The notes beneath the pieces are model-generated. The model did not search any database, was not told the origin of the DNA, and worked only from the letters and a program-made list of their open reading frames with translations. The position numbers and the translations under genes were made by a program. From positions 1 to 64,000 of IMG/VR virus record IMGVR_UViG_3300034349_000079: 64,000 bases of DNA. One strand, given 5' to 3'. Origin of the DNA: a virus (taxonomy: Duplodnaviria > Caudoviricetes). Of the stretch, positions 11,629-32,040 are shown in pieces; the stretch's first letter is position 1; the number at the start of each line of letters is the position of its first letter.

Positions 11629-12327
11629 TCAAGTTCTAGGTTTTAAGACTGGGTTATATGGGCGTAGAAGCTTGCGCTCTATTTCGTGAGCCATTGTTGG
11701 TGTTCGATCCAGTCTGTAGAAATACTTTGTATCATCAGGTTCTTCAGACCATCCAAATTGTTCGTACCAGTCTGACTCTGGTTGCCCAAAGAATTCCCAG
11801 ATAGCTTGATAATTTTCTCTTGTCCAGGAAGTACGAGATGGAAGTAAGTTTCTCGTACAAGCGTGATCTGGGTACTCAGCATTTTTCCATTTTTTGTGTG
11901 TTGCTATTTTACAACCCTTATACAATAGTAGAGCACGGAGGCCAGAATGAAATTCTTCATCCCCCCAAAAAGGAGGATCAATTTCTGGATACTCTGCCTC
12001 CTCCAGTTTTGAGACTATGTCACGCCACTTAAAAAGCGCTTCCTTACGCTTCTTCAGCATCTCAGTTTTGCCACTTACCTTGATAGGACGTATGATTCGT
12101 TCTTCAGATGTGGTGGCTATAAAACGAGCTAATTGTAGTTCGGCGTTAGTCCAGAATTTTGCCATTGTGTGGTATGAATATCCACTTTCTCCATTAGCCC
12201 TTTTGGGATAACATTCACAAAGACTTTTCAAGATAAGTAGACCAGCTACTTCTACTTGATATAAGTGCTTGATACTCAGTGCCTTAGCACTTCTCTCAAA
12301 ATCTGGGAAAGGCATAAAGACGATCAT
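11629..12327 (-). CDS. pyrimidine-dimer DNA glycosylase (DenV / MSMEG_6728-like)
   Basis: FMPFPDFERSAKAL...HTMAKFW...PPFWGDEEFH pattern. Confidence 0.7.
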   Translation of the reverse strand: MIVFMPFPDFERSAKALSIKHLYQVEVAGLLILKSLCECYPKRANGESGYSYHTMAKFWTNAELQLARFIATTSEERIIRPIKVSGKTEMLKKRKEALFKWRDIVSKLEEAEYPEIDPPFWGDEEFHSGLRALLLYKGCKIATHKKWKNAEYPDHACTRNLLPSRTSWTRENYQAIWEFFGQPESDWYEQFGWSEEPDDTKYFYRLDRTPTMAHEIERKLLRPYNPVLKPRT

Positions 12328-13004
12328 CAGAATTTTCTTATGCTAGCTTCGCCATCATTAATCTCAAGAACTTCTCGTTTTCTTGGAAAACAATCGACAT
12401 TGAAGTTATCTGGATAAACTTCCCATACTCCTTGTGAGGTACCAAAAGGACGATAATTAGAATGTCCAAACACTTGTTTGATGCCAGGGACTGGTTTAAA
12501 TTCTTCTGTATCACACCAGAGAATTCCTCCAACAGGAAATAGGCCGCCTCTAGTATAGCCAATTTGTGCGAGGTTTTCGATTGGTGCTTCATCAAGATAT
12601 TTTACTATTTCTTGAAAATTCATATCTTTTTCAGGTAACCAACTTTCGCTGACTCCAGCGTGAGTGACGAGAAAATCATCTACTATAACATACCATCGAA
12701 AATTTCTTAAAATACGTGCCTTCCGTTTGTTTATTTCTTGCTGTGTTTTATGTTCATAACCAGAACATGCATAACGATTATTCAAATACCCATATTCGTG
12801 ATTCGCGATTAAAGCAGTTACATTATCTCTTGTTTCAATAGCTTCTAAAACTAAATCAACGCATTCTATTTGTTCATCTATGTTTTTATCAAAGCTATCT
12901 ACAAAATCAGATACGAATACTGTGGCTTGGTCTTTGTCTTGGAGCAAATCTCTAACATGGCCGACCAACCCATGGATGTCGCCGCATACAATAACGCTAC
13001 TCAT
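12327..13004 (-). CDS. metallophosphoesterase
   Basis: GDIHG, SDFVD, ANHE, THAG, WCD, FGHS. Confidence 0.85.
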   Translation of the reverse strand: MSSVIVCGDIHGLVGHVRDLLQDKDQATVFVSDFVDSFDKNIDEQIECVDLVLEAIETRDNVTALIANHEYGYLNNRYACSGYEHKTQQEINKRKARILRNFRWYVIVDDFLVTHAGVSESWLPEKDMNFQEIVKYLDEAPIENLAQIGYTRGGLFPVGGILWCDTEEFKPVPGIKQVFGHSNYRPFGTSQGVWEVYPDNFNVDCFPRKREVLEINDGEASIRKF

Positions 13005-17411: not shown

Positions 17412-17714
17412 TTATACATATTTAAAAAACACTATTTCAGGTAGAAAATAAAGTAGGCTGCTGGAAGAATCACCGATGTGAAGTTTCCACACCTCATATC
17501 GTAGTAGATTTTTCCGTGCAGCACTTCGTTTAGCACCAGCTAATGTGCCATGAATCTTGTGCCCGTCACCAAGTCCTATGTAGTCGCAGAACCAACTAGT
17601 GATTAATCCCGTCGGTACACTGTACTTATAGGTTGGATAATCAAAGATCTTTATTCTGTACCCAATGTCTTGGTGTTTAAGAGTAGGTGCTGTTATTGCA
17701 ATTGTGTTAACCAT
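17412..17714 (-). CDS. hypothetical protein
   Basis: 100-aa ORF; see 16765..17037. Confidence 0.6.
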   Translation of the reverse strand: MVNTIAITAPTLKHQDIGYRIKIFDYPTYKYSVPTGLITSWFCDYIGLGDGHKIHGTLAGAKRSAARKNLLRYEVWKLHIGDSSSSLLYFLPEIVFFKYV

Positions 17715-18738
17715 CGTTTTTCAGTAAGTACTCGTTGTTAATAACCTTAAATGACGTCGCACCATCTGCCGATTTGAATACCAACCCTTCAATTGAAGGC
17801 ATAGAAGGAAATTTTGTCCGGTTAATTAACTCCGGCAAAGCTAGAATTGATTCCATATCTGTAATACCTAATTCAGGCAGTGTAAAATTCAACCCAAGAG
17901 TAGGAACATGGTTCAAAAAATGTGCTTCGCAAAATGCCGTACGTTCAATATGCGGTAAATAACACTGGTTGTCAATATCCCAAATGTCAAAGATGTAAAT
18001 TTGTACATTGAGATAACCTGCTCTATTTCTTTGAACCCCTGGTCCTGCAAGTTCTCCTTGTACTGCAAGATTTCGACCACAGGCTTCTAGTGCCTTAATG
18101 ATCCCTGAATTCTGTGCCGCATGTATGAACGCATTCCCTGAATTTTCGGGATCCATTTTTAGATCTATGTTGTGAGAACAGACTCCAACTACTCCATCTT
18201 TTAAATAGCCTGTTATTGAACTTCCATCAACTTTCAGAGAGATTTCATACTTAGTCTCTTGGTCAAGTAGTACCTCAGGAATATTTTGTATACGCGTTTG
18301 ACTTGTGCGATGTACAAAATATGGAAAATTGCCTTTACCTAAACCCCTCATATTTTCGGGTAGTGCGCGCTCCCACTTAAGCACGCCGAGTAGCTCAGTG
18401 AGGTCCATGCCCTCGACAAATTTGGCATGCGGCCAATCAGGAAGTTTTAGCAGCAGTCCCTGTGATAATTGTCCACGTAAGCGAACTGTACGTAGTCTTT
18501 CACCTTGAACTTCTTCAAAAACCTTTGGAGAATGCCCAGGTTTTGTAAGAAATGGAGCGAGTTCTGTTGGTACCCAACTATCCACCTCAAAATATAGCAC
18601 TAATTCATCGGTCTTAAAATCATCTTTTTTTACAACACACATCCAGCCATCTACTCTGGCGACCTGGATACTATCCGCGCCTTCAATTGGATTAATTTCT
18701 GCGATACGTCGTATTGTTGCTAGTCTTCTCTCAGACAT
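17707..18738 (-). CDS. RNA ligase, Rnl2 / DRB0094 family
   Basis: N-terminal OB domain (LRTVRLRGQLSQGL), KVDGSS, QGELAGPGVQ, EGLVFK, SFKVINNEYLLK. Confidence 0.9.
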   Translation of the reverse strand: MSERRLATIRRIAEINPIEGADSIQVARVDGWMCVVKKDDFKTDELVLYFEVDSWVPTELAPFLTKPGHSPKVFEEVQGERLRTVRLRGQLSQGLLLKLPDWPHAKFVEGMDLTELLGVLKWERALPENMRGLGKGNFPYFVHRTSQTRIQNIPEVLLDQETKYEISLKVDGSSITGYLKDGVVGVCSHNIDLKMDPENSGNAFIHAAQNSGIIKALEACGRNLAVQGELAGPGVQRNRAGYLNVQIYIFDIWDIDNQCYLPHIERTAFCEAHFLNHVPTLGLNFTLPELGITDMESILALPELINRTKFPSMPSIEGLVFKSADGATSFKVINNEYLLKNDG

Positions 18739-27065: not shown

Positions 27066-28673
27066 TTAAATTTTCTCCGCGATGAAATCGGACACAATCT
27101 GAGGAAGGCTCGCATCAGCCCCAACGCAGTCCAGCATTCCGGAGTCTTTTGGATCAGCGATTGTGAAATTAGTCGCAGTCAAGCCCATGACTACTAACTT
27201 CACGTCGTGGCCTACTTGCTGGCGGTATTCGCGCAAAGCTTGTACTGGCTGAATACGGCCGGCGTAAGTCTCTGAATCCGTCGCGATAATTACAGTCTCA
27301 AAGTTCCGTTGCTTCTGTTTAGCCCAAACCACGGGGAGACTGCAATCAGTTCCGCCGAACGGTAATCGATTAGTTTGGCGAATTATATCGTCTAAGCGTT
27401 GTTTAGGGCTGATGTTGAGCGGAATAAAAGACGTCGAAAAGGCCATGAACTCGTAGTCTTCTTCCAGACGCGCGACTGCCATAGCAAAGGCAACAGAGGC
27501 AGTTCTTGCAGTCATATGCGTTCCTGCGACCATGCTACCGTCCATCGAGCCGCTGACATCCATGGCAAACAGGATTTTCTTTCCTGTCGGAGCAACGTTT
27601 TTGAAAGATAGGTAGAAAGCCGCATCCAGAGCATCTACTATCTTTTGAACCGGAGTCCAAGTTAAAGAACCTTTTACACCGCGCCCTGCCTGATAGGTTG
27701 TAAGAGCCAGAAGGATTGAGAAAGGATGTACACGCGCTTTTTGTAAAGCTTCTGCATCCTGTAGTTTGGAGATCACCAACTTTGTTGCTTCGCTATTTGG
27801 TTGAAGTAAGCCAATATTCGTCATCTTCGATAAGTTTCTAAGCGCCGCATGGAGTGGCATCTTTTGGAGCAAGGCTTCCCAGACGGAGACGCTATTGAGC
27901 CAGGTATTCGGAACCATCTCTCTTGTGAGCCCAAAATCATTTATCAGCGCGATATTTGGCTTATCTGGGCTAGCCATTGCCTTGATATGAGCTTGGACAG
28001 TTTGTGGAAGCATTGACTCATCCGCAACTACTTTTCCAACCGCCCACTTGAATAGATCATTCATTTCAGCATCTTTTGGGACTGGATGCGCCATACGTAG
28101 TGCGTCTTTTGTGGACCAGTCGTTACGAGTGCGATACTTGGTGAATTGATAGCCGAGTTGATCTGGGGTCTTGGATGTATACCACGAGGCAACAGTTTCG
28201 CGTAAAACACGTCCCCAGCCTCTAAGTGGATTCACATAGCTGATGAACTCAAACAAATGGCTCTGAGTCCGTACTACAGAAGAAAATACTTTCATGGCTT
28301 CATGACGTACAGGCAGAGTTCCATGCGAGAAGGCCAAGGCCAAAGCAAACAAGGTTGGACTTACTTTAGGACCCCTGCCTTCCACCGAGATTTGCTTGAG
28401 TAGCTGAATAGCTTCAACACCGATGTCTGAAGGAGCGGAGAAAATATCTACGGCTACTTTAGCGTTGTCCTTAGTCAGTTTCTGTTCTGTTGCGTAGTAT
28501 GTACCTCCGGAACTTCCAAGAATAAGAAAACGTTCGAACTGTTTAAGTGGAGAAATTGTAAAGGTCATGCCATGGGCATTGTTAAGCGACATTTCCCGTT
28601 CTCTACCAGGAATGACCTGCGTTTGTGGAGTTGTAGAATATGAGCGAGCGAAGTTTGCGTACGGACCGGACAT
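27066..28673 (-). CDS. rsr: Ro60/Rsr TROVE-domain RNA-binding protein
   Basis: RFLILGSSGGTYY, GWGRVLR, KYRTRNDWSTKDALRMAHP, MPLHAALRNL, vWA DVSGSM, GGTDCSLP, TDSET. Confidence 0.95.
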   Translation of the reverse strand: MSGPYANFARSYSTTPQTQVIPGREREMSLNNAHGMTFTISPLKQFERFLILGSSGGTYYATEQKLTKDNAKVAVDIFSAPSDIGVEAIQLLKQISVEGRGPKVSPTLFALALAFSHGTLPVRHEAMKVFSSVVRTQSHLFEFISYVNPLRGWGRVLRETVASWYTSKTPDQLGYQFTKYRTRNDWSTKDALRMAHPVPKDAEMNDLFKWAVGKVVADESMLPQTVQAHIKAMASPDKPNIALINDFGLTREMVPNTWLNSVSVWEALLQKMPLHAALRNLSKMTNIGLLQPNSEATKLVISKLQDAEALQKARVHPFSILLALTTYQAGRGVKGSLTWTPVQKIVDALDAAFYLSFKNVAPTGKKILFAMDVSGSMDGSMVAGTHMTARTASVAFAMAVARLEEDYEFMAFSTSFIPLNISPKQRLDDIIRQTNRLPFGGTDCSLPVVWAKQKQRNFETVIIATDSETYAGRIQPVQALREYRQQVGHDVKLVVMGLTATNFTIADPKDSGMLDCVGADASLPQIVSDFIAEKI

Positions 28674-28712
28674 AATAACACCTTAACGTTGGTTGGTTGG
28701 TTGGTTGAAAGA

Positions 28713-28773
28713 AGGGCTAATTAATTATCAAACGGTTTATCATTACAGGTGGTAACGTTTGAAAATCGGCCCT
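28713..28773 (-). ncRNA. Y RNA-like element Y1
   Basis: AGGGCCGA-stem-TTACC...TTAGCCCT. Confidence 0.75.
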
Positions 28774-28783
28774 AAAAAAGAGA

Positions 28784-28858
28784 AGGCTAAAAGCGTCAAA
28801 GAGGATTTTCATAGTCTGACGACTAAGTCATGGAAGATAATTCTCTGACTACGGCCCT
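28784..28858 (-). ncRNA. Y RNA-like element Y2
   Basis: AGGGCCGT-N10-TTATC...TTAGCCTT. Confidence 0.75.
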
Positions 28859-28865
28859 AAAACGG

Positions 28866-28939
28866 GGTGAGTGACGGGCTTCGGACCCGTATTTCTAGGA
28901 ATCACAGTCCTAGGCTTTACCAATTAAGCTACACTCAAC
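28866..28939 (-). tRNA. trnH: tRNA-His(GTG)
   Basis: TAGGA-CTGTGAT-TCCTA, G-1/C73; atypical TCCGAAG T-loop. Confidence 0.85.
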
Positions 28940-28948
28940 ATTTGGAGC

Positions 28949-29063
28949 GGGCAAAGCGCTGTGTTTGAGAGTTCAAGGTCTACAAGTATCTCGGTTGTAG
29001 CCTAGTCTTTAATTCGAATGGTTAGTTCGGATGTTGTCAAGATAATCAAACACTATCGGCCCC
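28949..29063 (-). ncRNA. Y RNA-like element Y3 (long form, two internal hairpins)
   Basis: GGGGCCGA-TAGTGTTTGA-TTATC...TCAAACAC..TTTGCCC. Confidence 0.7.
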
Positions 29064-29145
29064 AGAAACATTTGCATAGTTTATTCGGCAAGCTCCTACT
29101 ATGCTAGGAGTTTCACGGCCAGTCCTAGTTAGAACTGTCCTTGCC

Positions 29146-29457
29146 TTATTTTGGTAAAACGCTCGCAGCAAGCTGGTTGATGCTGCGTAAGAAAAGCAAA
29201 CGCGTTCTTGGATAAGTCCACTTTAGCCAATGTCTCTCGTTTGTTGGATCTCCTATCTCTTCAGACAGAATCATCCGCCATATTTGTGCTGGAGTGTACT
29301 TATGAATGTAGTTTTGATCCCGCGCTGCTTGGGCACTTACTACATGTCCGTGCATAATAGCTCTACGAATAGCCTTACGAACGGGGTCACTTTTATTATA
29401 TCGAGAATGATACAAATGATCTTTTGACATTGGCCTCTGATGAGAGCACCTACTCAT
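29146..29457 (-). CDS. hypothetical protein
   Basis: GAGGT RBS before MSRCSHQ. Confidence 0.6.
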   Translation of the reverse strand: MSRCSHQRPMSKDHLYHSRYNKSDPVRKAIRRAIMHGHVVSAQAARDQNYIHKYTPAQIWRMILSEEIGDPTNERHWLKWTYPRTRLLFLRSINQLAASVLPK

Positions 29458-29837
29458 AGTAGACCTCTGATTATTTCCTACATTTTCAACTAGCTTGCGG
29501 AGTATATTCGCTAGAAGCAACAAGCCGCCCCCGTGGTCCTAAAATTGAGTACACGAGCCTCCCGCCTGGCATTTTAGTAGGTTAAAACCCCCTGAAAAAA
29601 TTCGTCACCTGTGGGGTTATTTATCCTAGCATATTCTCCCACCGGTCTTCTTACAAGCCGAGGTGTGGCAAACGGATAAAGGGCGTTTTGTAAGACAAGC
29701 CCTTTAACAACTCTCTCACCTAAATGATCAATTTCTTGAGCGATGATGACAAAACGGTACTACCATAGAGATTTTTATTTTAATCCCCGGCCCTAAAGAC
29801 CGTTGGCTTTTCTTATTAGACGATGGTAGCATTAGTT

Positions 29838-29912
29838 TGGCGACCCTGCGGGGTTTCGAACCCCGGTAATGTGATAGACAATCACATGTCCTAGCCTTTA
29901 GACGACAGAGCC
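29838..29912 (-). tRNA. trnD: tRNA-Asp(GTC)
   Basis: TGTGA-TTGTCTA-TCACA, G73, CCA. Confidence 0.9.
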
Positions 29913-29921
29913 ATATTTTGT

Positions 29922-29981
29922 AGGGCTAAAGATAGTTTTGCTGTTTGATCGCCTAATGATAAAGCAAAACTGGACGGCCCT
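29922..29981 (-). ncRNA. Y RNA-like element Y4
   Basis: AGGGCCGT-AGTTTTGCT-TTATC...AGCAAAACT-ATCTTTAGCCCT. Confidence 0.75.
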
Positions 29982-29986
29982 GAAAT

Positions 29987-30116
29987 TGGTGGAGTAGCCT
30001 CGATTTGCACGAGGATCGTTCATTTTACAGATGAGAATACATCACTATCGTACCGGGTTTGGACGGTCAAGATGTTGCAATGCACTTTTAACGCTCTACT
30101 ATTAAGCTACTACTCC
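29987..30116 (-). ncRNA. tRNA-Tyr(GTA)-like RNA with a 56-nt Y-module insertion in the anticodon stem
   Basis: complete acceptor, D and T arms and CCA; removing the insert gives GTTCAT-CTGTAAA-ATGAAC. Confidence 0.75.
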
Positions 30117-30122
30117 AGAAAT

Positions 30123-30187
30123 TGGCGCGAAAATAAGGGATAATCTACCGGCCGTGTTTGGCTAAAGATGTAGGTCCCGTTTTCGCA
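30123..30187 (-). ncRNA. circularly permuted Y-like RNA with CCA end (P1)
   Basis: TGCGAAAA/TTTTCGCG-CCA outer stem; inner ATCTTTAGCC-loop-GGCCG...TTATC. Confidence 0.65.
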
Positions 30188-30192
30188 TTGTT

Positions 30193-30259
30193 TGGTGCGA
30201 AATAAATAAACTCCACCGGCCAGTGGTTATAGGTGGGATCCTAGTCTAAATATTCCGCA
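30193..30259 (-). ncRNA. circularly permuted Y-like RNA with CCA end (P2)
   Basis: TGCGGAATA/TATTTCGCA-CCA; inner TAACC-ACT-GGCCG. Confidence 0.55.
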
Positions 30260-30264
30260 TTGTT

Positions 30265-30340
30265 TGGTAGCGAGGGCGCGATTCGGACGCGCGATCTTAG
30301 GTTTATGAGACCCATGAGATAACCACTTCTCCACCTCGCT
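30265..30340 (-). tRNA. trnM: tRNA-Met(CAT), initiator-like body
   Basis: TGGGT-CTCATAA-ACCTA, CCA. Confidence 0.85.
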
Positions 30341-30473
30341 AAATTTTAAGTGTCTCTAGATCAATATTTCTATTTCTATCTTACGCCCGCGAGCGGTAGA
30401 TGGCTACTTATAGAACAAGACCTTGTTAATTCCCTAGAGACCGATCAAGGCTATTCCGTTTTACTCATATATT

Positions 30474-30525
30474 CGGTGGACATCAACGGGGTTGAACCGT
30501 TCACTACCGTCGTAGCTTAATGTCC
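30474..30525 (-). ncRNA. 52-nt tRNA minihelix-like RNA
   Basis: GGACATT/GATGTCC-A-CCG, AACGG-TTCAACC-CCGTT T-arm, one 4-bp hairpin between them. Confidence 0.55.
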
Positions 30526-30534
30526 GTAATTAGT

Positions 30535-30656
30535 TGGGACTGAGAGGTTTCGAACCTCTGACATGCTGTTGTGATAATACACCAAATCCGGACTATTTGT
30601 CAAGTTTGGATGGCGCATGTTTTTGACGGCTGCTCTACCAGCTGAGCTACAGTCCC
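30535..30656 (-). ncRNA. tRNA-like RNA with a 47-nt Y-module insertion in the anticodon stem
   Basis: GGGACTG/CAGTCCC, GCTC/GAGC D-arm, AGAGG/CCTCT T-arm; insert contains CTTGAC/GTCCGG helix. Confidence 0.7.
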
Positions 30657-30667
30657 ATTTAAAAAGG

Positions 30668-30817
30668 TGAGGGGAGCAGGTTTCGAAGCTGCAATTTCAC
30701 TATTAAGTGAACCGGTTCCTATTATTATGTAAGTCTATCGACCCATTTGTAATGGGTAAATATATCGATATACAATTTTATATATACCGGTGCGTCTACC
30801 AATTTCGCCATCCCCTC
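30668..30817 (-). ncRNA. tRNA-Leu-like RNA with a ~62-nt Y-module insertion in the anticodon loop
   Basis: Leu-type D-arm and variable arm, CCGGT/ACCGG stem; insert contains TTTACCC/GGGTCGA bulged helix. Confidence 0.7.
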
Positions 30818-30822
30818 ATAAC

Positions 30823-30898
30823 TGGCTCCGAAAAGAGGTTTCGAACCTCTGACAAACTGCTTAACAGGCAGCTACTCTACCAACTGAGTTATATCGGA
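30823..30898 (-). tRNA. trnN: tRNA-Asn(GTT)
   Basis: GCTGC-CTGTTAA-GCAGT, G73, CCA. Confidence 0.9.
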
Positions 30899-30916
30899 TT
30901 AGTGCAGAGGATTATA

Positions 30917-30945
30917 ATAATAATCTAAATCCTCGTGAAAGTCAA
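30917..30945 (-). promoter_or_regulatory. sigma70-type promoter driving the tRNA/Y-RNA cluster
   Basis: TTGACT-17 nt-TATTAT upstream of tRNA-Asn. Confidence 0.6.
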
Positions 30946-31043
30946 ATGCTTTCTCCTGTATGTTGTCGATCAAAGCGAAAAGTTCTTCGTCTGAAATGTC
31001 ATCGTTAAATAGTTCGTTGTCTATCATTTTTATACACGTTGTG

Positions 31044-31118
31044 TGGTCGGCGCCGAGGGAATCGAACCCCCTTAGTCATGGTCCCAAACCATGCGATCAG
31101 CCAATGAACCAGGCACCG
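31044..31118 (-). tRNA. trnP: tRNA-Pro(TGG)
   Basis: CATGG-TTTGGGA-CCATG, CCA. Confidence 0.9.
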
Positions 31119-31125
31119 AGATGGA

Positions 31126-31185
31126 AGGGCTAGTTAGTTATGCTGGGGTTGTATCTTAGAAGGATAACCCATCAAGAACGGCCCT
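31126..31185 (-). ncRNA. Y RNA-like element Y5
   Basis: AGGGCCGT-N10-TTATC...CTAGCCCT. Confidence 0.7.
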
Positions 31186-31385
31186 AAAATCAAAACGCGC
31201 TTACATGGAGACGTCTAGAATTCTCCTAGTGGGTTACACCACGTTTTTCTGTAAAGTAAGCGCCTCATCATCCTAGAATAGTGTGGTTAATGTTGCTTTT
31301 ACACCACAAGGTTTTATTGTAGCAACCCTTCAGCTAGTCATTAATATTACCGTTCGTCAGACTAGCAGTTGAGAACGAGTATTCT

Positions 31386-31461
31386 TGGAGCGGACACGGA
31401 AAGAATCAAACTCCGGTCATTAGCTTGGAAGGCTAAGGTAATATCACTATACGATATCCGC
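31386..31461 (-). tRNA. trnG: tRNA-Gly(TCC)
   Basis: TTAGC-CTTCCAA-GCTAA, U73, CCA; bulged T-stem. Confidence 0.85.
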
Positions 31462-31471
31462 AAAAAACGGT

Positions 31472-31531
31472 TGGGATAATTGATTTATCATGCGAGTGTC
31501 AGTAATTTAGGTAACGCACGACTTCGTCCCA
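31472..31531 (-). ncRNA. Y RNA-like element Y6
   Basis: TGGGACGA-N9-TTACC...TTATCCCA (compensatory C-G to A-U change). Confidence 0.7.
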
Positions 31532-31537
31532 GAAACT

Positions 31538-31627
31538 TGGTGTATGGTAGTTGATTCGAACAACTGTGGGCCATCAAGACCAACGGATTTACAGTCCGTC
31601 CCCGTCAACCAGCTTGGGTAACCATAC
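31538..31627 (-). tRNA. trnY: tRNA-Tyr(GTA)
   Basis: ACGGA-CTGTAAA-TCCGT, long variable arm, CCA. Confidence 0.9.
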
Positions 31628-31677
31628 AAGTAAGTAATAGTACCACATTTTGTCACAATGTGGTACTACGGTTTCGC

Positions 31678-32040
31678 TCAATCCCGAATGAGCTCAACGT
31701 ATTTGATATACTCGCCGAGCACTTCGACAACGACATCTGCGTCGATGCTATCCCCGCTATTAACGTTTTTGCGTAGCCAAGTTTGAACGGCATACGGGAG
31801 AGCGTCTTCCTTGAAGCTCAACACGACGCAGATTTCACCGTCCTCCGGAGGGTCAAACTCCCTGAAAAGAAGCTTATTCAGGTTTGCAACCAGGTCAGTC
31901 CCGTCATCGCACATGTCTTCGAAGAAGTCGTTATCTTCAGCGAATTCCAGAGCTGTGATAATCGCGGTCTTAAGCGTGGCGAGCTCGAGCTTTACACTAT
32001 CGATCTCAGCGTTAAGATCAGCTTTATTCTTCTCAGCCAT
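31678..32040 (-). CDS. hypothetical protein
   Basis: GGAG RBS before MAEKNK. Confidence 0.65.
   Translation of the reverse strand: MAEKNKADLNAEIDSVKLELATLKTAIITALEFAEDNDFFEDMCDDGTDLVANLNKLLFREFDPPEDGEICVVLSFKEDALPYAVQTWLRKNVNSGDSIDADVVVEVLGEYIKYVELIRD

What the first reader, a model, noticed from the sequence alone, without database searches (positions are those of the whole stretch)
28713..31531. Six linear Y-RNA genes feeding a phage Ro60
Y1-Y6 share 5'-GGG(C/A)CG(A/U), then a 9-11-nt stem strand, then UUA(U/C)C, and end in UUAGCCC-like sequence, with covarying stems and one compensatory change in the Ro helix. This matches the recalled vertebrate Y RNA layout (e.g. GGUCCGA-N10-UUAUC...UUGAC). 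They are interleaved with tRNAs and co-oriented directly upstream of rsr. Most are only ~60 nt and lack the tRNA-like domain of bacterial YrlA. This many minimal Y RNAs in one phage is unusual.
Basis: partly seen in the sequence, partly recalled or inferred. Interest (0 to 1): 0.85.

Follow-up and report, generated by a model that had tools for sequence, protein, structure and literature searches.

The report
Six mini Y RNAs beside phage Ro60
Six small structured RNA genes just upstream of a phage Ro60 gene belong to a widespread family of compact Y RNAs that has no Rfam model of its own, always lies beside Ro60 genes in viruses and bacteria, and shares sequence motifs with animal Y RNAs.

Summary
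Six elements lie on the minus strand, between tRNA genes, 41 to 2,857 nt upstream of a full-length Ro60 gene (27066-28673). They are 31530-31473, 31184-31127, 29980-29923, 29062-28949, 28857-28784 and 28772-28714.

Each has a 5' GGG(C/A)CG(A/U), a helix of about 9 bp that differs in sequence in every copy, UUA(U/C)C, a loop, and a 3' UUAGCCC-like strand.

A covariance model built only from other viral contigs ranks four of the six as the top hits of the window. A second model finds exactly these six in the 83.6-kb genome; the next hit scores 9 bits.

The same module lies beside Ro60 in at least 57 of 80 viral loci and in most of 80 bacterial loci. All 347 hits are on the Ro60 strand, with strong covariation and up to 11 copies per locus. 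Six copies is therefore more than the literature reports, but not unusual in metagenomes.

The six have no tRNA-like domain and give no YrlA hit. Short relatives almost reach Rfam's threshold for nematode stem-bulge RNAs, which are Y RNA homologues.

Binding to Ro60 and expression are inferred, not shown. Five copies place an A opposite the normally bulged C.

Other notes of this scan flagged further Ro-site-like RNAs in this same window.

The parts
31473..31530 (-). Y1, 58 nt. GGGACGA ... UUACC ... UUAUCCC. The only copy with the full GNCGAAG motif. Pair 4 of the terminal helix is A-U.
   Evidence: R1 18.4 bits; R2 20.4 bits; fold; pair counts
31127..31184 (-). Y2, 58 nt. GGGCCGU ... GGGUUAUC, then a 4-bp stem with the 7-nt loop CUUCUAA, then ... 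UAGCCC.
   Evidence: R1 31.2 bits; R2 44.0 bits; weak hit to the nematode sbRNA family RF01656, 19.3 bits
29923..29980 (-). Y3, 58 nt. GGGCCGU, a 9-bp helix, UUUAUC, the 7-nt apical loop AUUAGGC, UUUAGCCC.
   Evidence: R1 17.6 bits; R2 23.7 bits; fold
28949..29062 (-). Y4, 114 nt. Same outer module with a 72-nt apical insert holding two hairpins that are not tRNA-like. The only copy with the family's canonical UUUGCCC 3' strand (bulged-C form).
   Evidence: R2 28.6 bits; fold
28784..28857 (-). Y5, 74 nt. GGGCCGU ... UUAUC ... UUUUAGCCU. The weakest copy; its first terminal pair is G-U.
   Evidence: R2 16.9 bits, E 0.05 for the genome and 0.002 for the region
28714..28772 (-). Y6, 59 nt. GGGCCGA ... 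UUACC ... UUAGCCC. It ends 41 nt before the rsr start codon.
   Evidence: R1 26.3 bits; R2 43.1 bits
27066..28673 (-). Ro60/Rsr gene, 535 aa, with TROVE and Ro60-type vWA domains and an intact DxSxS MIDAS motif.
   Evidence: Pfam PF05731 3e-44 and PF25045 2e-58. Aligns end to end with animal Ro60 chains (9nen E 1e-114; 1yvp E 1e-105) and D. radiodurans Rsr (2nvo E 4e-105)
28864..31627 (-). Co-oriented tRNA genes interleaved with the Y genes: Tyr 31538-31627, Gly-like about 31386-31461, Pro 31044-31118, Asn 30823-30898, Met 30265-30340, Asp 29838-29912, His 28864-28938, and three tRNA-like genes with inserts. Gaps between a Y element and the nearest tRNA are only 5-11 nt.
   Evidence: ARAGORN; Rfam tRNA hits

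Best explanation
These are six genes for compact Y RNAs, the small RNA partners of the phage's own Ro60. Each RNA pairs its 5' GGG(C/A)CG(A/U) with its 3' UU(A)GCCC to form the Ro60-docking helix. In most of the family this helix has a bulged C; in five of these six copies an A sits opposite that C. Above an internal loop lies a second helix of about 9 bp that differs in every copy, followed by the conserved UUA(U/C)C and a variable apical loop. The genes are probably transcribed together with the neighbouring tRNAs as one precursor. They would then be released by the tRNA-processing nucleases, since the gaps to the tRNAs are only 5-11 nt. Bound to the outer face of the Ro60 ring, they would stabilise Ro60 and control access to its cavity. 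Their different loops would let Ro60 engage different partners, such as the host exonuclease PNPase or damaged tRNAs. This would form part of an RNA quality-control and repair module that also includes a phage RNA ligase and a phosphoesterase. What is shown: the sequence family, its structure by covariation, and its strict linkage to Ro60 genes. What is inferred: expression, processing, Ro60 binding and the downstream role.
For: The six elements and nothing else in the genome match models of the family. The family is tied to Ro60. All 99 hits, all 166 hits and all 181 hits are on the Ro60 strand, mostly within about 1 kb of the gene. In a motif-first scan of 2.9 million viral contigs, 35 of 80 retrieved loci carry Ro60, and all 51 motifs in those loci are on its strand. 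Covariation is strong: 94.7% of cells paired against 68.8% in shuffles and 37-59% when slid, with all 9 inner pairs compensatory; the six window copies alone give the same picture. The 5' strand fits the motif proposed to contact Ro60, GNCGAAN0-1G, which is close to GGUCCGA (PMC4201824). Long relatives with the same outer module are recognised as YrlA (49.6 bits). The Ro60 gene is full length and canonical. There are precedents: D. radiodurans makes Yrn2, tRNA-Asp and Yrn1 from one precursor (PMC4201824), and Thermus phage phiLo Ro60 binds two upstream Y-like RNAs and host PNPase (PMC12135203). An RNA ligase (17707-18738) and a metallophosphoesterase (12327-13004) lie nearby.
Against: There are no expression or binding data. 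None of the six reaches any Rfam gathering score. Only Y1 has the full GNCGAAG motif. Five copies have a 7-nt 3' strand, which puts an A opposite the normally bulged C, so the docking geometry may differ. Y5 scores weakly (16.9 bits). The covariation counts were made on alignments fitted to the model, which favours the structure. Model R2 had Y2 and Y6 among its 99 training rows.
Confidence: 0.8

Rival explanations
1. They are real structured RNAs of this family, but their main role does not depend on the phage Ro60. For example, they could act as spacer or processing modules that organise cleavage of the tRNA precursor. They could also act as decoys that soak up a host factor such as host Rsr, PNPase or a tRNA-targeting nuclease.
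For: They sit 5-11 nt from tRNA ends. A U-rich UUU(U/C)(A/U) precedes every copy and could be an endonuclease site. About a third of the short family members end in a 7-nt loop with an anticodon-loop-like signature.
Against: Across 160 loci the module follows Ro60 genes, not tRNA genes. It occurs next to Ro60 where no tRNA is adjacent, and it is absent from the window's other tRNA clusters at 10.1, 23.8-24.1 and 39.2-39.6 kb.
Confidence: 0.12
2. The repeated motif works at the DNA level as a promoter, terminator, protein-binding site or recombination site, and no stable RNA is made from it.
For: U runs follow Y1 and Y5. The repeats lie in an intergenic, AT-rich RNA-gene region with several promoter-like matches.
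Against: Both helices keep base pairing through compensatory changes and G-U pairs, which matter only in RNA. The orientation is strictly that of Ro60 in 347 of 347 hits. The promoter and terminator scan places no site on any of the six. The inner helix sequence differs in every copy, which does not fit a protein-binding DNA site.
Confidence: 0.03
3. The resemblance is a chance recurrence of a short motif.
For: GGGNCGW alone occurs 32 times in the window.
Against: A model with no window sequence puts four of the copies at the top of the window, at E 2e-5 to 0.06. 0 of 100 shuffles reach the observed pattern count. All six lie in 2.8 kb next to Ro60.
Confidence: 0.01

Closest known systems
Short hairpin-type bacterial Y RNAs: S. 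Typhimurium and M. smegmatis YrlB, and D. radiodurans Yrn2 (PMC4201824)
   Same: Second or further Y RNAs encoded next to rsr on the same strand. A long stem formed by the two ends carries the GNCGAA-type motif. There is no full tRNA-like domain. They are co-transcribed with a tRNA and another Y RNA.
   Different: These six are as short as 58 nt and come as six copies. They carry UUA(U/C)C directly after the inner helix. Five of them have C opposite A instead of a bulged C. I could not obtain the YrlB or Yrn2 sequences from a tool, so no direct alignment was made.
YrlA (Rfam RF02553)
   Same: The same outer architecture: a terminal helix with a CGAA-type 5' strand, an internal loop, an inner helix, and a CUUG...-type 3' strand. 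This is visible in the alignment of a relative to the YrlA model.
   Different: YrlA carries a T-arm, an acceptor-like stem and a D-arm in its loop. None of the six does, and there is no YrlA hit even at E<=10.
Yrl1 and Yrl2 of Thermus phage phiLo (PMC12135203)
   Same: Phage-encoded Y-like RNAs upstream of a phage Ro60, identified by a CGAA motif and a stem-bulge-stem shape. They were shown to bind that Ro60 and host PNPase.
   Different: The phiLo Ro60 is only remotely related to this one (E 1e-4, against 1e-105 or better for animal Ro60 and Rsr). phiLo has two RNAs rather than six.
Nematode stem-bulge RNAs (Rfam RF01656) and vertebrate Y RNAs
   Same: The layout GG(N)CCG - about 10 nt - (G)GGUUAUC ... 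CAACUUG(N)CC. The bulged-C helix. The UUAUC motif, which PMC4726728 describes as conserved in sbRNAs and vertebrate Y RNAs. A short relative scores 37.0 bits against a gathering score of 38.
   Different: Only Y2 of the window hits this family, at 19.3 bits. Vertebrate Y_RNA (RF00019) gives no hit. The eukaryotic RNAs are RNA polymerase III transcripts with oligo-U tails and larger loops.

Membership tests
Y RNA (Ro60-associated small RNA, functional class) | Encoded within a few kb of the Ro60 gene on the same strand (PMC4201824: within 4 kb) | tested here: met
   All six are on the rsr strand, 41-2,857 nt upstream of its start codon
Y RNA (Ro60-associated small RNA, functional class) | The 5' and 3' ends pair into a stem whose 5' strand carries the Ro60-contact motif (GGUCCGA in animals, GNCGAAN0-1G in bacteria) | tested here: met
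   The terminal helix is present in all six, with one compensatory change. The 5' strand is G-N-C-G-(A/U) in all six. The full GNCGAAG is present only in Y1.
Y RNA (Ro60-associated small RNA, functional class) | A single bulged cytidine in the Ro60-binding helix | tested here: inconclusive
   Y4 (UUUGCCC) and most relatives fit the bulged-C form. Y1, Y2, Y3, Y5 and Y6 have a 7-nt 3' strand that puts A opposite that C.
Y RNA (Ro60-associated small RNA, functional class) | Physical binding to Ro60 and Ro60-dependent accumulation | not testable with these tools
   Needs a pull-down, a gel shift or Northern blots.
YrlA (Rfam RF02553) | A tRNA-like domain (T-arm, acceptor-like stem, D-arm) and a score of at least 69 bits | tested here: not met
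   No YrlA hit at E<=10 in 28600-31700. The model does recognise long relatives, at 49.6 and 28.3 bits.
Nematode sbRNA (Rfam RF01656) | A score of at least 38 bits | tested here: not met
   Y2 scores 19.3 bits and the other five give no hit. The best relative scores 37.0 bits.
Vertebrate Y_RNA (Rfam RF00019) | A match to the family model | tested here: not met
   No hit at E<=10 in the window region, nor at E<=1 in relatives.
Ro60-linked compact Y module defined here (models R1 and R2) | A match to a covariance model built without window sequences | tested here: met
   R1 recovers Y2, Y6, Y1 and Y3. Y4 and Y5, which have longer loops, are recovered only by R2.

The most novel reading that the evidence does not exclude
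The compact module (GGNCCGA, about 10 nt, UUAUC, ..., UUGNCC) is the prokaryotic and viral counterpart, in sequence as well as shape, of animal Y RNAs and nematode stem-bulge RNAs. On this reading Ro60 and its Y RNA share one origin, or moved together between cells and viruses, contrary to the view that bacterial Y RNAs are not homologous to the vertebrate ones (PMC4726728). In addition, the conserved UUAUC would often be the 5' strand of a small hairpin whose 7-nt loop copies the anticodon-loop signature (pyrimidine, U, NNN, purine, A). Arrays of such RNAs on Ro60 could then act as anticodon-arm mimics that sense or decoy tRNA-targeting nucleases during infection.
Probability: 0.3. Interest if true: 0.8.

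Novelty: new variant of a known kind. Interest (0 to 1): 0.6.

Why it matters
Y RNAs next to bacterial and phage Ro60 genes are known. The described ones are the tRNA-like YrlA plus one or two others per genome, and Rfam holds only YrlA.

This work shows a compact class of 52-70 nt that is common in arrays beside Ro60 in phages, many bacterial phyla and one archaeal MAG.

The class keeps the UUAUC and CUUG motifs of animal Y RNAs. That gives a concrete sequence bridge for the old question of whether bacterial and animal Y RNAs are related.

It also offers a small set of six natural variants with their cognate Ro60 for binding and structural work. For phage biology, it adds a multi-RNA Ro60 system to the tRNA and RNA-repair genes that phages carry.

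Tried and rejected
- Megablast of 27066-31700 against 50,697 phage records gave no match.
- The search for related loci with the single Ro60 protein found nothing in viral contigs. It worked only with an alignment of homologues.
I therefore could not read the contexts of the closest Ro60 relatives (51-53% identical), nor the 131.6-kb contig that carries the identical protein.
- MAFFT alignments of the elements (A1, A2, A4) mis-register the inner helix, and RNAalifold on A4 saw only the 4-bp terminal helix. I chose six seeds in the same register and wrote the structure by hand.
- Rfam at gathering and at E<=10 gives no Y_RNA or YrlA hit on the window.
- The motif-first scan of IMG/VR uses 16 specified bases. 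By my rough estimate of the collection's size, dozens of matches are expected by chance, so the 45 single-copy loci without Ro60 are probably mostly noise.
- The promoter and terminator reading was rejected: no site falls on any of the six elements, and the covariation is of RNA type.
- The supplementary tables of PMC4201824 and the 2020 Annual Review (PMC10870794) are not held. I therefore could not check how many Y RNAs per phage were listed there.
Full report
**What is there**

The window is the first 64 kb of an 83,630-bp phage-like contig. It encodes a family A DNA polymerase, a primase/helicase-like protein, an RNA ligase and many tRNAs.

On the minus strand, 27066-28673 encodes a 535-aa protein with TROVE and Ro60-type vWA domains. 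This protein aligns end to end with animal Ro60 chains (9nen, E 1e-114; 1yvp, 1e-105) and with D. radiodurans Rsr (2nvo, 4e-105). It is only remotely related to the Ro60 of Thermus phage phiLo (E 1e-4).

- Y1 31530-31473
- Y2 31184-31127
- Y3 29980-29923
- Y4 29062-28949
- Y5 28857-28784
- Y6 28772-28714

Their lengths are 58, 58, 58, 114, 74 and 59 nt. Each begins GGG(C/A)CG(A/U). After 0-3 unpaired bases comes the 5' strand of a helix of about 9 bp, then UUA(U/C)C, then a variable loop. The 3' strand of that helix follows, then a linker of a few bases, then UUAGCCC. The variants of that last strand are UUAUCCC in Y1, UUUGCCC in Y4 and UUAGCCU in Y5.

The elements are interleaved with co-oriented tRNA genes, with gaps of only 5-11 nt.

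**Is it more than chance?**

A simple pattern for the 5' half gives 6 hits in the window, against 1.3 +/- 1.3 in shuffles.

The stronger test uses outside data. With an alignment of Ro60 homologues I fetched 80 viral contigs that encode Ro60. A regular expression for the 5' motif lit up on the Ro60 strand right next to the gene in many of them.

I built covariance model R1 from six such elements, none from the window. Run with filters off on both strands of the window, its four best hits are Y2, Y6, Y1 and Y3 (31.2 to 17.6 bits; next 9.4).

Model R2 was built from the 99 hits of R1. Over the whole genome it finds exactly the six elements and nothing else above 9.2 bits.

**Structure**

On the 99 R1 hits, 94.7% of cells form standard pairs. 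The figure is 68.8% when partners are shuffled and 37-59% when they are slid. All nine inner pairs and four of six terminal pairs show changes on both sides.

In the six window copies alone, all nine inner pairs are compensatory. Pair 4 of the terminal helix is C-G five times and A-U once, in Y1. These alignments were fitted to the model, which favours the structure. However, single-sequence folds give the same two helices in every member.

In most of the family the 3' strand is (C)UUG(C/U)CC. The 5' GGGCCGA then pairs with one C bulged, as in the animal helix GGUCCGA/UUGACU described in PMC4726728. In five of the six window copies the 3' strand has one extra base (UUAGCCC), which places an A opposite that C. 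Y4 keeps the canonical form.

**Link to Ro60**

- All 99 R1 hits and all 166 R2 hits in viral loci are on the Ro60 strand, mostly within about 1 kb of the gene.
- In the reverse test, a 16-base motif was scanned over 2.9 million viral contigs. Of the 80 loci retrieved, 35 carry a Ro60 gene in the stretch held. All 51 motif copies in those loci are on the Ro60 strand. Every multi-copy locus is on a Ro60-bearing contig.
- The module is not confined to phages. In 80 bacterial rsr loci there are 181 hits, again all on the rsr strand. These loci come from Myxococcota, Chloroflexota, Armatimonadota, Gemmatimonadota, Proteobacteria and one Bathyarchaeota MAG.
- Arrays are the rule. By my count, at least 57 of the 80 viral loci have a copy. 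Many have 3-4, one has 6 and one has 11. Several bacterial loci have 5-7.
- Six copies therefore puts this phage at the high end, not outside the range.

**Relation to known families**

Rfam holds YrlA (RF02553). Long relatives, in which the same outer module encloses a T-arm, an acceptor-like stem and a D-arm, match it at 49.6 and 28.3 bits. That alignment shows that YrlA's outer part has the same architecture.

None of the six window elements carries such a domain, and no YrlA hit appears even at E<=10. They are thus the bare Ro60-binding module. The nearest in kind are the short hairpin Y RNAs (YrlB, Yrn2) that Chen et al. found by immunoprecipitation (PMC4201824).

The short forms instead hit the nematode family RF01656. 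That family includes CeN72, which PMC4726728 names as a stem-bulge RNA. A relative scores 37.0 bits against a gathering score of 38, at E 8e-6. Y2 scores 19.3 bits. The shared letters are GG.CCG, (U)GGGUUAUC and CAACUUG.CC.

PMC4726728 states that UUAUC is conserved in sbRNAs and vertebrate Y RNAs. It also states that bacterial Y RNAs are regarded as not homologous to the vertebrate ones. The present family blurs that line. No hit to vertebrate Y_RNA (RF00019) was obtained.

**Likely mechanism (inferred)**

By analogy with the Xenopus, Deinococcus, Salmonella and phiLo systems (PMC4201824, PMC12135203), the terminal helix would dock on the outer surface of the Ro60 ring. The RNAs would stabilise Ro60, gate its cavity and, through their different loops, couple it to other factors such as host PNPase.

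The tight spacing to tRNAs and the Deinococcus precedent (one precursor for Yrn2, tRNA-Asp and Yrn1) suggest co-transcription and release by tRNA-processing enzymes. A U-rich UUU(U/C)(A/U) precedes each copy in this phage and may mark an endonuclease site.

The nearby RNA ligase and metallophosphoesterase fit an RNA repair and quality-control setting.

**A further pattern**

Among 92 distinct short family members, 34 fold with an apical hairpin loop of exactly 7 nt. The figure is 7.2 +/- 2.2 after shuffling the apical part. In 27 of the 34, the closing stem uses the AUC of UUAUC. The loop positions are as follows:
- position 1: C or U in 22 of 34
- position 2: U in 27 of 34 (background U is 27%)
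- position 6: a purine in 29 of 34
- position 7: A in 22 of 34

This is the signature of a tRNA anticodon loop. Y2 (CUUCUAA) and Y3 (AUUAGGC) are of this type. Whether it reflects mimicry of an anticodon arm is open.

**Limits**

- There are no expression or binding data.
- The E-values of my models are rough, because calibration was shortened.

**Other notes of this scan**

Other notes of this scan flag further Ro-site-like helices in this same window, in permuted order, inside three tRNA-like genes and two CCA-tailed units. My folds are compatible with these, but I did not test them statistically.

Noticed in passing
window 30666-30817 (-): A tRNA-Leu(UAG)-like gene with a 62-nt insert in the anticodon loop (ARAGORN). 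The insert folds into a capped hairpin in which UUUACCC pairs with GGGUCGA, with C opposite U. This is the family's Ro-type helix in circularly permuted order.
   Followed up: partly
window 30533-30657 (-): A tRNA-like gene (46.9 bits) with an insert of about 50 nt containing CUUGAC-AAAUA-GUCCGGA, a GUCCG/UUGAC helix with a bulged C. The best sigma-70-like promoter match of the region (TTGACA-18-TATTAT, 11 of 12) lies inside the same insert at 30603..30574.
   Followed up: partly
window 29987-30116 (-): A third tRNA-like gene with an encoded CCA and an insert of about 50 nt containing CUUGACC ... GGUACGA, a Ro-type helix with a bulged A in permuted order.
   Followed up: partly
window 30123-30259 (-): Two units of about 70 nt that share an AACAAUGCG leader. 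Each is closed by a 7-9-bp stem followed by CCA. The second holds UUUAGCC-AAACAC-GGCCGGU and then UUAUC, so it may be a permuted Y-like RNA.
   Followed up: partly
window 29758-29830 (-): A tRNA-like element (25.9 bits, below gathering) whose anticodon-loop position reads CUUUAGG (anticodon UUA, which would read UAA). Its T-arm is replaced by an AU-rich hairpin. It contains the UUUA-GGGCCGG junction typical of the 5' ends of the Y genes.
   Followed up: no
window 30468-30525 (-): A mini tRNA-like RNA: a 7-bp acceptor-like stem, a small hairpin and a T-arm with loop UUCAACC, followed by CCACC. It has no D arm and no anticodon arm.
   Followed up: no
window 31386-31461 (-): A tRNA-Gly(UCC)-like gene with a weak T-arm (32.9 bits). 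ARAGORN finds it only at a relaxed threshold. It starts 11 nt after Y1.
   Followed up: no
L061:7980-8112; L045 (whole locus); L246: In relatives, one Y module encloses what looks like a complete tRNA cloverleaf (L061). One viral locus carries 11 copies of the module (L045). A Bathyarchaeota MAG carries 5 copies beside its Ro60 (L246).
   Followed up: partly
A9/A10 (family alignment), including window Y2 and Y3: A third of the short family members end in a 7-nt loop with an anticodon-loop-like signature (pyrimidine, U, NNN, purine, A), closed by a stem that uses the conserved UAUC.
   Followed up: partly
window 17707-18738 (-) and 12327-13004 (-): An RNA ligase (PF09414 with a PHA02142 OB domain) and a calcineurin-like phosphoesterase, which could form an RNA-repair pair in the same transcriptional direction as Ro60.
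   Followed up: partly
protein P0001 (the window's Ro60 read from a later start codon): The identical protein is recorded on two contigs, the longer of 131,589 bp. The phage genome may therefore be larger than the 83.6-kb contig held here.
   Followed up: no
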